Positions 1,997 through 3,934 of a stretch of 6,464 nucleotides of DNA are shown here, one piece after another; the stretch's first letter is position 1, and every line of letters starts with the position of its first letter. The stretch lies in the IMG/VR virus record IMGVR_UViG_2684622618_000013; one strand, 5' to 3'. The translations under genes and the position numbers were made by a program. Source of the DNA: a virus. Its lineage: Duplodnaviria > Heunggongvirae > Uroviricota > Caudoviricetes. The notes beneath the pieces are model-generated. The model did no database searches and was not told where the DNA came from. It worked only from the letters and a program-made list of their open reading frames with translations.

Positions 1997-3934
1997 TCAG
2001 CCGCCGGACGCACTGCCGTAGTTCACTCCGGTGATCACCGCCACCGCCGCAGTACGGCGACGACGCCAGTTGATCCAGCGCTCCGCACGGATGGCCACGC
2101 TGCCTGTCTGGAACATGGAAACCAGCTCCACCGGGGACGGCGTGGTACTGTCGCCGCCCGGCTCAGACTGCATTTCCAGTGATGCCTCGCGGGACATATC
2201 CACTGCCACGCCGCCGTCATCCGCCAGATAAATATCCGGGGCATTCACCAGCACCAGCTGGTCACCCACGTACTGGGAGACAATCACCGGCAGCCCCTGG
2301 AAGGAGCCACCCAGCAGGGTCATGTCCGGGTATTCCTTCTGACCCAGCGCATTTTTACGCATGGACAGTGCCAGGGCATTGGTGCTGGACATCAGCCAGA
2401 CCGCACCGGTGGGCTGCAGGTTTGCTGCCACAAACTGTCCAAACGCAGCCTCGGCATCCGCATCCGGGTTACCGGTTGATGCCGTGCCCTTCACATCATG
2501 GGTGATGGACGCCGGGGAGACATCTGCCACTGCGGCTTTTTTCGGGTCCACAAAGTCTGTATCCAGACGCGCCACCACCGCTTCCGCCAGCGCATTACGG
2601 ACCAGTGCATCAGCAGCCGGACTGGAAAAACGGATCAATTCTTCCGTCAGTACCGCAATGGCCGACACCTTCGCATGACTGAAGGTGATGGATTCAAAAT
2701 CAAACTTCGTCAGGGGTTTTGCCTTACCCTCACCCACCCAGCCGGCAGCACCGCCGGACACCTGGGCGTGCACACGGATATTGAATGGCACCTGACGAAG
2801 TGCAGGGATCCCGCCCTGACCAAATCGCCCGATAATGGTCTGCGGACGCAGGTAATCAATAAAGTCCTGTGCGTATTCCTGATATTCAGACAGGCTGCCT
2901 GCCCACTGCGGATCCGTGGTGGTCCCCGCGCCCACTGCCGATTTCAGGACATGATGCAGACGACTGTCATCCGGATACTGACGACGGGCCACTTCCAGGG
3001 CTTCAGATCGGACGCCTTTAGCCGCAGCCAGCGATTTGGCAAAGCGGGCGAAGCCAATCCCCTTATCCAGTTTCTGCTCCACACGGATCACCGGCGCAGA
3101 AGCCACCGCGGCCACATTCCCGTTACCGGCCTGTTTCACCGGCTGCGCCGTGGCGGCCTTACCGGCTTCCAGTTCACGCAGGCGCTTCAGGTGCGCATCC
3201 ACCTGACGGATTTCCGCTGCGGTGTTGTCGTAATGCTCTTCCTCCTCCACATCCAGCGTGCGCCCTTCCTCTGCGGCTTTGGTCATGACCTCCTCAAGGG
3301 AGGCTGCCAGCGCTGCACGCTTGTTTTCAAAACTTTTAATCTGTTCGCCAATATTCATTATGGTCTTTTCCTTATGAAAAACGGTTGTTGACTGTGCCGC
3401 AGCGCCGGCAGAAGATGCGATTTTCACCACCGGTTTCCGGTTGCCGGACGCGGCAGAAAACGGGCGGTCGTAAGATTTAATGGTCCGGATGGTGCATTCC
3501 GCATTCGCGGGCACGGTGACGGCAGACACCTCCATCAGTTCCCAGCGCAGAAAATGCAGTCCGCCTCCGTCCAGAAAGGTGTATTCATGGGGACGGAAGC
3601 CCACGGACAGCCCCCTGACCAGCCCGGTCTTAATGGCCGCCCAGACCTCATCCAGCCGGGCAGCCAGTTGCGACGGCATATCCGGTACGGGCTTCACCAG
3701 TGTTGCCGTGATTTCCAGCCCTTCGCTGACCCGGCGCACCGTACACTGCCCCACCGGGCGGGAATGGTCATGCTGCCAGAGAAACGGGATCGCACTGCCA
3801 AACTCCGCGCCCTCCGGCTCCAGGATGTCACCATCCCGATCCGGAGAAGGCGTTGACGCAATCCCGGTGATCACCCGTTCATCCTCACTGAAGGATTTCA
3901 CCGTCAGCAGGGAACAGGCCCGTTTAAGAGTCAC
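1997..3934 (-). CDS. Prohead protease / scaffold-like / major capsid protein fusion (HK97 family protease domain + HK97-fold MCP)
   Basis: GTG start at 3934..3932 with AGGAGG 5 nt upstream; TGA stop at 1999..1997. Residues ~1-160 carry prohead-protease hallmarks (FLWQHDHSRPVG, GLSVGFRP, ELMEVSAVTVPAN). Residues ~193-260 are a charged coiled-coil-like segment (MNIGEQIKSFENKRAALAASLEEVM...LKRLRELEAGKA), as in delta-domain N-termini of HK97-type capsid proteins. Residues ~270-645 look like an HK97-fold capsid protein. The 645-aa frame is continuous. Confidence 0.9.
   Translation of the reverse strand: MTLKRACSLLTVKSFSEDERVITGIASTPSPDRDGDILEPEGAEFGSAIPFLWQHDHSRPVGQCTVRRVSEGLEITATLVKPVPDMPSQLAARLDEVWAAIKTGLVRGLSVGFRPHEYTFLDGGGLHFLRWELMEVSAVTVPANAECTIRTIKSYDRPFSAASGNRKPVVKIASSAGAAAQSTTVFHKEKTIMNIGEQIKSFENKRAALAASLEEVMTKAAEEGRTLDVEEEEHYDNTAAEIRQVDAHLKRLRELEAGKAATAQPVKQAGNGNVAAVASAPVIRVEQKLDKGIGFARFAKSLAAAKGVRSEALEVARRQYPDDSRLHHVLKSAVGAGTTTDPQWAGSLSEYQEYAQDFIDYLRPQTIIGRFGQGGIPALRQVPFNIRVHAQVSGGAAGWVGEGKAKPLTKFDFESITFSHAKVSAIAVLTEELIRFSSPAADALVRNALAEAVVARLDTDFVDPKKAAVADVSPASITHDVKGTASTGNPDADAEAAFGQFVAANLQPTGAVWLMSSTNALALSMRKNALGQKEYPDMTLLGGSFQGLPVIVSQYVGDQLVLVNAPDIYLADDGGVAVDMSREASLEMQSEPGGDSTTPSPVELVSMFQTGSVAIRAERWINWRRRRTAAVAVITGVNYGSASGG

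What the first reader, a model, noticed from the sequence alone, without database searches (positions are those of the whole stretch)
1997..3934. Single ORF fusing prohead protease, scaffold-like coiled coil and HK97-fold major capsid protein
In HK97-type modules the protease and capsid protein are normally separate adjacent genes. Here a complete-looking protease domain (His/Ser motif regions HDHSRPVG and GLSVGF) and a complete-looking capsid protein with its own delta-like N-terminal helix share one uninterrupted 645-aa frame. This could be a genuine fusion that fixes protease incorporation per capsid, or a lost stop codon. The continuous frame is seen directly; the domain assignments are pattern recognition without a search.
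Basis: partly seen in the sequence, partly recalled or inferred. Interest (0 to 1): 0.55.

Follow-up and report, generated by a model that had tools for sequence, protein, structure and literature searches.

The report
Fused prohead protease–capsid gene of Stx phages
This is the already-annotated head gene of E. coli O157:H7 lambdoid and Shiga-toxin phages, a real and widespread fusion of the capsid-maturation protease to the capsid protein; the one new point is that the old capsid start site is conserved inside it, so it probably also makes the capsid protein alone.

Summary
A 645-aa ORF (window 3934→1997, minus strand) encodes an S78/assemblin-fold prohead protease (aa 1-142), a disordered linker (143-192), a Δ-like helical hairpin (195-262) and an HK97-fold capsid protein (to aa 645).

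It is not an artefact or a recently lost stop. It is 100% identical to a gene in 1255 of 5426 complete E. coli genomes and in inducible Stx phages (2851, YYZ-2008, BP-4795), where it is already annotated "major head protein/prohead protease". PHROGs holds it as one family (phrog_617). The fused form is found in alpha-, beta- and gammaproteobacteria, with 1181 clusters at E ≤ 1e-30. So it is already known as a kind; the studied precedent is Gifsy-2.

What I add:
- Twelve relatives have two separate genes, with the stop exactly at residue ~194-205. Stand-alone capsid proteins begin at residue 193/194.
- The fused genes keep that internal start. The codon is ATG, GTG or TTG only. An AAGGA motif sits 6-10 nt upstream in three different codon phases. 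The surrounding region is the lowest-GC, least-structured part of the gene.

I infer a nested gene: a 69-kDa protease-Δ-capsid product plus a 48-kDa Δ-capsid product, like lambda C/Nu3 or HSV UL26/UL26.5. No protein data exist for this.

The parts
1997..3934 (-). Complete fused ORF, 645 aa, 69.0 kDa; GTG start at 3934-3932, TGA stop at 1999-1997
   Evidence: 100% identical to WP_000173030.1, annotated 'phage major capsid protein', and to 'major head protein/prohead protease' of Stx phages; phrog_617 full-length match, E 3e-261
3940..3945 (-). Shine-Dalgarno AGGAGG of the full-length product, 5-nt spacer (CTGAT) to the GTG start
   Evidence: duplex energy -10.3 kcal/mol
3509..3934 (-). Prohead (capsid maturation) serine protease domain, aa 1-142; His55 codon at 3772-3770, Ser110 codon at 3607-3605
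3359..3508 (-). Disordered linker, aa 143-192; its last ~10 residues are hypervariable and contain indels in homologues
   Evidence: pLDDT <50; alignments A1 and A3
3369..3373 (-). Internal Shine-Dalgarno-like AAGGA, 10-nt spacer to the internal ATG (inferred to be functional)
   Evidence: the same core is present in 37 of 38 fused loci at 6-10 nt spacing and in three different codon phases; duplex energy -6.2 kcal/mol
3356..3358 (-). Internal ATG (Met193): the ancestral capsid-gene start codon and the inferred start of a nested 453-aa, 48.2-kDa Δ-capsid product
   Evidence: TIGR01554 match begins at model position 3 at aa 204; stand-alone capsid proteins start at query aa 193/194; ATG 34, TTG 3, GTG 1 in fused loci; Met, Val or Leu in all 143 fused cluster representatives; lowest-GC and weakly structured window
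3149..3352 (-). Δ-domain-like helical hairpin (scaffolding domain), aa 195-262
   Evidence: AF2 helices 195-222 and 229-262, pLDDT 84-89; profile match to the N-terminus of the cf-PICI EcCI2 major head protein 9gyi, residues 3-67
3086..3142 (-). Variable, disordered segment, aa 265-283; one of two candidate zones for the maturation cleavage (the other is aa 335-348)
   Evidence: pLDDT <50; hypervariable in A1. The cleavage site itself is not determined.
2000..3085 (-). Capsid protein body, aa 284-645 (HK97 fold; Pfam Phage_capsid at aa 386-635 = nt 2030-2779)
3998..5659 (-). Context: terminase large subunit, immediately upstream
   Evidence: Pfam TerL_ATPase and TerL_nuclease; annotation
1..1785 (-). 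Context: portal gene, downstream of the fusion and running off the window; preceded by a 73-aa ORF at 1731-1952
   Evidence: Pfam Phage_portal; annotation as 859 aa

Best explanation
This is the head gene of a lambdoid or Stx prophage of E. coli O157:H7. It is a genuine, selectively maintained fusion of an HK97-gp4-type (S78, assemblin-fold) maturation protease to an HK97-type capsid protein that carries its own Δ scaffolding domain.

Proposed mechanism:
1. The Δ-capsid part drives shell assembly around the portal.
2. Because the protease sits N-terminal to Δ, it ends up inside the prohead. It needs no separate targeting signal. This step is inferred from HK97 biology.
3. After assembly, the Ser110/His55 protease removes the protease, linker and Δ parts, leaving a mature capsid protein of about 31-38 kDa.
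4. The ORF also appears to be a nested gene. The ancestral capsid start (AAGGA, 10 nt, ATG at Met193) is conserved inside it, so ribosomes probably also start there and make a 48-kDa Δ-capsid protein without protease.

The prohead would then be built from a mixture of 69-kDa and 48-kDa subunits. The ratio of the two initiations, not a fixed 1:1, would set the protease dose. This is the same logic as lambda C/Nu3, HSV-1 UL26/UL26.5 and HFTV1 gp17/gp17.5, except that here the nested product is the capsid protein itself.

Status of the claims: the fusion, the folds, the conservation and the start-site signature are shown here. Two protein products, the cleavage sites and the stoichiometry are inferred. 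The confidence given (0.6) is for the whole statement including the nested product; the genuine fusion alone I put above 0.95.
For: Genuine fusion:
- It is identical in 1255 of 5426 E. coli genomes and in 93 phage records, including inducible Stx phages.
- The ORF is 644-648 aa at about 75% identity across Enterobacterales.
- One open frame spans both domains in 39 of 52 loci from alpha-, beta- and gammaproteobacteria.
- Most of the top 150 clusters at 50% identity are full-length fusions, and 1181 clusters score E ≤ 1e-30.
- A 77%-identical homologue comes from Symbiopectobacterium Eva_TO, the host of the siphovirus EVP-1 whose particles were seen by TEM and whose 1935-nt capsid ORF sits in the same gene order (PMC8156552).

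Domains.

Junction equals the ancestral gene boundary:
- 12 split relatives have the protease stop at residue ~194-205, in six of them (L038, L042, L045-L048) overlapping the capsid ATG as ATGA.
- Stand-alone capsid proteins start at query residue 193/194.

Internal start retained under selection:
- The start codon is ATG 34, TTG 3, GTG 1 in 38 fused sequences.
- In 143 fused cluster representatives, 129 have Met. The other 14 have Val (13) or Leu (1) at or next to that position. A random 7-aa window contains Met 14.7% of the time.
- The AAGGA core is present in 37 of 38, at 6-10 nt spacing. It encodes Lys-Gly in 22 and Lys-Glu in 15 fused genes, and mostly falls in a third phase (e.g. Lys-Arg) in split genes, so the constraint is on nucleotides.
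- SD energy is -5 kcal/mol or better in 34 of 38. The fused median is -5.6 against -6.5 in split genes.
- The -30..+20 window is the lowest-GC window of the gene in most fused loci (0.34 against 0.62 here). It is in the weakest 5% for predicted folding in 27 of 38, the same as in split genes.
- The residues just upstream are hypervariable with indels.
- Fused and split states are interspersed on the tree.

Precedent for nested protease genes: bioRxiv 10.64898/2026.09.13.751334.
Against: There are no protein-level or ribosome-profiling data for this family; I found none.

The internal SD is only moderate on its own, falling in the top ~12% of in-gene positions.

The 5' start of fused genes has a stronger SD (median -9.3 kcal/mol) than the internal one (-5.6). 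The full-length product may therefore be the major species, and internal initiation could be minor.

A prohead made only of full-length subunits is not obviously excluded on physical grounds. That would be about 12.7 MDa of internal protein for 415 subunits, similar to what I recall for the P22 scaffold load.

Low GC at the junction could partly reflect a Lys/Asn/Thr-rich flexible linker.

The loci are phylogenetically related, so the counts are not independent. The NJ tree has no support values.
Confidence: 0.6

Rival explanations
1. Simple polyprotein. Every subunit is translated from the 5' start as the 69-kDa protease-Δ-capsid protein and trims itself after assembly, as I recall was described for the Gifsy-2 tripartite gene. 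The internal SD and ATG are not used for initiation.
For: The 5' start has a strong AGGAGG SD (-10.3 kcal/mol) and is stronger in fused than in split genes (-9.3 against -6.2 median). This fits a start that must supply all the capsid protein. The Gifsy-2 precedent for a fused protease-coat gene is cited in PMC12315714. An interior load of about 12.7 MDa is physically plausible.
Against: It does not explain why Met193 is replaced only by TTG or GTG (Val or Leu). It does not explain why AAGGA keeps its distance to that codon while changing codon phase and encoded residues. It does not explain why this is the least structured, lowest-GC spot in the gene across lineages whose neighbouring residues are hypervariable.
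Confidence: 0.28
2. Artefact or pseudogene. A stop codon or frameshift between two normal genes was lost through sequencing error or decay in a defective prophage.
For: Split relatives show that the two-gene arrangement exists. Many O157 prophages are defective, and truncated copies of 558-605 aa do occur.
Against: The same open frame is found in 1252 complete genomes at ≥80% coverage and in 92 phage records. Those include inducible Stx phages. The frame is also open in distant proteobacterial lineages. Both domains retain their invariant catalytic and structural residues.
Confidence: 0.01
3. Recoding. A programmed ribosomal frameshift in the linker, or termination-reinitiation at the ATGA, yields a separate protease and capsid protein from the fused-looking sequence.
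For: In the +1 frame of the window a TAA overlaps the internal ATG (CCATAATG) and a T-run precedes it. ATGA at the internal start is nearly universal (A at +4 in 34 of 38).
Against: No conserved slippery heptamer was found. The T-run is specific to E. coli, and other lineages have different sequences there. The ATGA is explained by the Asn or Lys second codon. No conserved downstream structure was sought or seen.
Confidence: 0.03

Closest known systems
Annotated 'major head protein/prohead protease' of Stx and lambdoid phages BP-4795, 2851, YYZ-2008, 1717 and Stx2a_WGPS6; PHROG family phrog_617
   Same: The sequence is identical or 97-100% identical, with the same gene order TerS-TerL-fusion-small ORF-portal.
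   Different: Nothing differs; this is the same gene. Many RefSeq records label it only 'phage major capsid protein', which hides the protease.
Salmonella phage Gifsy-2 tripartite capsid gene (Effantin et al. 2010, Virology 402:355; cited in PMC12315714 and PMC8538268)
   Same: [quoted passage not shown]
   Different: From my memory of that paper, the Gifsy-2 protease is ClpP-like and the central domain is about 200 aa. Here the protease is S78/assemblin-fold and the scaffold is a ~70-aa Δ hairpin. There is no detectable homology in the protease part. I could not read the paper itself.
HK97 gp4 protease plus gp5 capsid protein (two adjacent genes)
   Same: Same protease family (PF04586), same Δ-domain-plus-HK97-fold capsid protein (TIGR01554), and the same presumed pathway in which Δ acts as scaffold and is removed by the protease.
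   Different: In HK97 the genes are separate and the protease is targeted non-covalently. The order there is portal-protease-capsid; here the portal follows the capsid gene. Twelve relatives of the present gene do have the HK97-like split form.
Nested protease/scaffold genes: lambda C/Nu3, HSV-1 UL26/UL26.5, HFTV1 gp17/gp17.5 (bioRxiv 10.64898/2026.09.13.751334)
   Same: An N-terminal protease in the full-length product, plus an in-frame internal start giving a 3'-coterminal product that lacks the protease. The sequence signature of such a start is conserved here.
   Different: In those systems the nested product is a free scaffold. Here it would be the Δ-scaffold fused to the capsid protein. 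Two products are not yet demonstrated here.
NCBIfam NF045541 'prohead protease/major capsid protein fusion protein' and actinobacteriophage 'major capsid and protease fusion protein' (phrog_4523; clusters AN, AU, AW, EE)
   Same: The same three-part architecture is recognised as a named class.
   Different: These are different families. The score against NF045541 is 54 bits against a 525-bit cut-off, and only aa 48-287 match. The phrog_4523 match is weak (E 1.7e-11).

Membership tests
HK97-type major capsid protein (PF05065 / TIGR01554) | Sequence-profile match above the curated cut-off | tested here: met
   PF05065 52.7 bits against 24.2; TIGR01554 78.3 bits against 27.5
HK97-type major capsid protein (PF05065 / TIGR01554) | HK97 fold | tested here: met
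   AF2 model; Foldseek probability 1.00 to Bxb1, D3, HK97, GTA and cf-PICI capsids; PDB profile hits
HK97-type major capsid protein (PF05065 / TIGR01554) | N-terminal Δ (scaffolding) domain that is removed by the protease | tested here: inconclusive
   A helical hairpin at aa 195-262 is predicted and matches the N-terminus of 9gyi. Its removal and the cleavage site cannot be tested here.
HK97-type major capsid protein (PF05065 / TIGR01554) | Lys-Asn isopeptide chainmail cross-link (HK97 sensu stricto) | not tested
   No residue-level structural alignment to HK97 gp5 was made.
Peptidase S78 (HK97 gp4 prohead protease) | Profile match above the cut-off | tested here: met
   PF04586 34.7 bits against 21. 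The stricter equivalog TIGR01543 is NOT reached, at 46.4 against 59.
Peptidase S78 (HK97 gp4 prohead protease) | Assemblin / T4 gp21 fold with conserved His and Ser | tested here: met
Peptidase S78 (HK97 gp4 prohead protease) | Proteolytic activity on capsid and scaffold | not testable with these tools
   Needs biochemistry.
NF045541 prohead protease/MCP fusion family | Whole-protein score ≥525 bits | tested here: not met
   54 bits, with only aa 48-287 matched. It shares the architecture but is not a member.
Gifsy-2-type tripartite capsid gene | Protease, scaffold and capsid protein in one ORF | tested here: met
Gifsy-2-type tripartite capsid gene | ClpP-like protease domain (from my memory of Effantin 2010) | tested here: not met
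   The protease is S78/assemblin-fold, and no ClpP or S49 Pfam hit was found.
Nested protease genes (lambda C/Nu3, HSV UL26/UL26.5, HFTV1 gp17/17.5) | In-frame internal translation start downstream of the protease domain | tested here: met
   This rests on comparative sequence evidence only: a conserved start codon, SD and unstructured context.
Nested protease genes (lambda C/Nu3, HSV UL26/UL26.5, HFTV1 gp17/17.5) | Two 3'-coterminal protein products made in the infected cell | not testable with these tools
   Needs Ribo-seq, western blot or N-terminal mass spectrometry.

The most novel reading that the evidence does not exclude
The fused protease-capsid genes of this large family are nested genes. 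A conserved internal initiation site at the old capsid start makes protease-free Δ-capsid subunits alongside full-length protease-Δ-capsid subunits. Protease dose per prohead is then tuned by two competing start sites on one ORF. Lineages can switch between 'fused' and 'split' by a one-base indel with little functional cost. This would extend the lambda C/Nu3 and herpesvirus UL26/UL26.5 scheme to a case where the nested product is the capsid protein itself.
Probability: 0.6. Interest if true: 0.5.

Novelty: already known. Interest (0 to 1): 0.27.

Why it matters
The fusion itself matters little, because it is annotated, common and has a studied precedent.

There is a practical point. RefSeq labels it only 'phage major capsid protein', so the protease of this very common O157 and Stx-phage head module is easy to overlook. 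These genomes appear to lack a protease gene when they do not.

The conserved internal start gives a testable answer to how a covalently fused protease avoids a forced 1:1 ratio with the shell protein. It would link HK97-type phages to the nested protease/scaffold scheme of lambda, herpesviruses and an archaeal virus. It also explains why fused and split forms alternate so freely in evolution.

Tried and rejected
- Sequencing error or pseudogene: rejected on population and phylogenetic breadth.
- Programmed frameshifting at the T-run and TAATG in the window: the sequence is not conserved in relatives.
- SD strength as a predictor of product ratio: uninformative or contrary, since the 5' SD is stronger than the internal one.
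- Phmmer of the single sequence against PDB gave only weak hits. The profile search was needed.
- Foldseek on the full-length model returned only capsid hits, so the protease had to be modelled separately. The workaround was alignment A4.
- Literature: Effantin 2010 and Cheng 2004 are not held. The Type I CBASS preprint and the Sp5 morphogenesis paper concern other head modules. No virion proteomics was found for this family.
- Maturation cleavage site: it could not be fixed. Two disordered zones (aa 265-283 and 335-348) are candidates.
- Terminator-like hairpin between terL and the fusion gene: one hit against 2.2 expected in shuffles, so not significant.
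Full report
**1. Observation**

The window holds one uninterrupted ORF at 1997..3934, on the minus strand. It is 645 aa (69.0 kDa). It has a GTG start preceded by AGGAGG with a 5-nt spacer, and a TGA stop. The finding did not give the strand; otherwise its coordinates, length and quoted motifs are exact.

**2. What the parts are**

- Pfam finds Peptidase_S78 at aa 48-152 and Phage_capsid at aa 386-635, both above the gathering score.
- NCBIfam TIGR01554 (HK97 major capsid) aligns from aa 204 at model position 3. 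The capsid family's own N-terminus therefore lies at about aa 200.
- The equivalog model TIGR01543 for the protease is below its cut-off (46 against 59). The curated fusion family NF045541 is matched only partially (54 against 525).
- An AlphaFold model built on a 47-sequence alignment gives these segments:

| Residues | Feature | pLDDT |
|---|---|---|
| 1-142 | β-rich protease domain | ~80 |
| 143-192 | disordered | <50 |
| 195-262 | two-helix hairpin | 84-89 |
| 265-283 | disordered | <50 |
| 293-331 | short helices | ~80 |
| 335-348 | disordered | <50 |
| ~350-640 | HK97 body | mostly 70-94 |

- Foldseek matches the C-terminal ~285 residues to Bxb1, D3, HK97, GTA and cf-PICI capsid proteins with probability 1.00. 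A PDB profile search agrees and matches aa 197-261 to the N-terminus of the cf-PICI head protein.

**3. Where it comes from, and whether it is known**

The ORF is 100% identical to a gene in E. coli O157:H7 chromosomes. Matches occur in 1255 of 5426 complete E. coli genomes, with up to 7 copies per genome.

In strain TR01 it lies in a lambdoid prophage. The order there is Q antiterminator, tRNAs, lysis genes, HNH, TerS, TerL, this gene, a 73-aa ORF, an 859-aa portal, connector genes and a lambda-like tail.

It is also identical or 97-100% identical in 93 phage records. These include Stx phages 2851, YYZ-2008, BP-4795, 1717 and Stx2a_WGPS6. Several of those records already call it 'major head protein/prohead protease' or 'capsid and scaffold'.

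PHROGs holds the full-length fusion as one family (phrog_617, E 3e-261). It also holds a separate family named 'major head and protease protein'.

Fused protease-coat genes are described for Gifsy-2 (PMC12315714; reference in PMC8538268). They are a routine annotation in actinobacteriophages. The finding is therefore already known as a kind, and as this very gene.

**4. Genuine fusion or lost stop**

- The fused 644-648 aa architecture is conserved at about 75% identity in Salmonella, Enterobacter, Klebsiella, Serratia, Pantoea, Kosakonia and others.
- A scan of one genome per species returned 59 loci. Of 52 with the junction in view, 39 have one open frame across both domains. They come from gamma-, alpha- and betaproteobacteria and one Vicinamibacterales MAG, at 31-80% identity.
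- In an exhaustive search of 1.84 billion cluster representatives, most of the 150 best are 630-680 aa and match over residues 1-640. There are 1181 clusters at E ≤ 1e-30.
- A 77%-identical homologue comes from Symbiopectobacterium Eva_TO, the host of EVP-1. EVP-1 is a siphovirus seen by TEM, and its 1935-nt capsid ORF has the same gene order (PMC8156552).

An artefact or pseudogene is excluded.

**5. The junction**

Twelve relatives are split: Diaphorobacter, Devosia, one Brucella daejeonensis locus, Qipengyuania, a sphingomonad, three Paraburkholderia, Gallionella, two Snodgrassella and one MAG. In these the protease frame stops at residue ~194-205 (235 in Snodgrassella). The capsid gene continues in another frame. 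Often the stop overlaps the start as ATGA.

Stand-alone capsid proteins among the cluster representatives begin at query residue 193 or 194. Met193 (window 3358-3356) is therefore the ancestral capsid start codon. A one-base indel in the ~10-nt spacer is enough to fuse or split the genes.

On a neighbour-joining tree of the capsid part, split genes are nested among fused ones at least three or four times. This tree has no support values and is only indicative.

**6. The internal start is conserved as a start**

- In 38 fused sequences the codon aligned with Met193 is ATG in 34, TTG in 3 and GTG in 1.
- Among 143 fused cluster representatives, 123 have Met in the 7-residue window before the conserved Glu197 equivalent, and 6 more have it shifted slightly by alignment offset. 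The remaining 14 have Val (13) or Leu (1) at or within a few residues of that position. A random 7-residue window in the same proteins contains Met 14.7% of the time. Ile, Thr, Lys and Arg are equally close mutational neighbours of ATG, yet I saw none of them at the Met-equivalent position.
- An AAGGA-type core lies 6-10 nt upstream in 37 of 38 fused loci. It encodes Lys-Gly in 22 and Lys-Glu in 15. In split genes it mostly falls in a third phase (8 of 11), for example as Lys-Arg. Positions -12 to -9 are purine in 36-38 of 38. The constraint is therefore on nucleotides, not amino acids.
- Anti-SD pairing is -5 kcal/mol or better in 34 of 38. The fused median is -5.6 against -6.5 in split genes, where the site must be functional.
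- The -30..+20 window is the lowest-GC 50-nt window of the whole gene in most fused loci (0.34 against a median of 0.62 in the window). It is among the 5% most weakly folding windows in 27 of 38, as in split genes.
- The ten or so residues just upstream are the most variable part of the protein and carry indels. The AlphaFold disorder ends exactly at residue 192.

Taken together, this is the signature of a working translation initiation region, kept over long divergence inside an ORF.

**7. Mechanism**

*Shown:* a conserved single ORF with an intact protease, a Δ-like scaffold and an HK97 capsid protein, plus a conserved internal initiation signature.

*Inferred from HK97 biology (established knowledge):*
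- Δ points inward, so an N-terminal protease is carried into the prohead covalently. This replaces the C-terminal targeting tail. Several split proteases carry an extra tail such as PFVIRSIKR that fused ones lack.
- After assembly the protease removes itself, the linker and Δ.

*Inferred from section 6:* ribosomes also start at Met193 and make a 48.2-kDa Δ-capsid protein. Proheads would then be mixtures, and the protease dose would be set by two start sites.

This is the nested scheme known for lambda C/Nu3 and HSV-1 UL26/UL26.5, and recently shown by Ribo-seq for HFTV1 gp17/gp17.5 (bioRxiv 10.64898/2026.09.13.751334). Here the nested product is the capsid protein itself.

*Against it:*
- The internal SD is moderate.
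- The 5' SD of fused genes is stronger (-9.3 against -5.6), and stronger than that of split proteases (-6.2). The full-length form may be abundant.
- An all-full-length prohead (about 12.7 MDa of internal protein) is not obviously impossible.
- No protein data exist.

I put the genuine fusion at above 0.95, and the nested second product at about 0.6.

**8. Not resolved**

- The maturation cleavage site. Candidate zones are aa 265-283 and 335-348, giving a mature protein of about 31-38 kDa.
- Whether the capsid is cross-linked like HK97.
- The ratio of the two products.

**9. Verdict**

The feature is an already known and already annotated gene of a very common E. coli prophage family. The modest new element is the evidence for a conserved nested start and for frequent switching between fused and split forms.

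Noticed in passing
window 1-1785 (minus strand); L001 22150-24729: The portal gene downstream of the fusion is annotated at 859 aa. Pfam Phage_portal covers only aa 54-382, leaving a ~470-aa C-terminal extension with no Pfam domain. It is a PHROG family of its own (phrog_2271). The homologous EVP-1 portal is only 1359 nt, so the extension is lineage-specific.
   Followed up: partly
window 213-262 and 516-565: Two 50-nt runs of N (masked sequence) lie inside the portal gene. They break its frame in the ORF list, so the 457-aa 'portal' ORF at 412-1785 ends in out-of-frame junk.
   Followed up: partly
window 1-6219, minus strand; L001 17716-24729: The head-module order is TerS, TerL, protease-capsid, small ORF, portal. 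The portal follows the capsid gene rather than preceding the protease as in HK97. The same order occurs in EVP-1 and in a soil-metagenome phage contig.
   Followed up: partly
window 1731-1952 (minus strand): A conserved 73-aa ORF of unknown function (phrog_829, no Pfam hit) lies between the capsid and portal genes and overlaps the portal start by about 55 nt. A similarly placed small ORF exists in EVP-1 (168 nt) and in L061 (116 aa).
   Followed up: partly
window 3956-3973 (minus strand): A terminator-like hairpin (GAACCGCTGCGGCGGTTT followed by a T-run) sits between the terL stop and the start of the fusion gene, inside what should be one late operon. Only one such site was found against 2.2 expected in shuffles, so it is not significant by count.
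   Followed up: partly
L061 3047-6331 (P0123); also P0132: Two distinct clusters at 50% identity (~1090 aa) carry an N-terminal AAA+ ATPase domain (PF00004) fused in frame to the S78 protease and HK97 capsid protein. P0123 sits in a normal-looking head module (TerL, small ORF, triple fusion, small ORF, portal) on a forest-soil contig. An ATPase in that position would be carried into the prohead interior like cargo.
   Followed up: partly
L040, L041, L042, L048, L051, L054 (protease 3' ends): Split-form proteases often end in an extra hydrophobic-alternating tail (PFVIRSIKR, PFTINKINH, QITITPR, HLIVKL) that is absent from fused forms. It may be the non-covalent capsid-targeting signal that the fusion makes unnecessary.
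   Followed up: no
P0001 (1079 aa) and P0004 (784 aa): Rare single-contig proteins join TerL or portal Pfam domains to the fusion. They are probably frameshift or assembly artefacts rather than real architectures.
   Followed up: no
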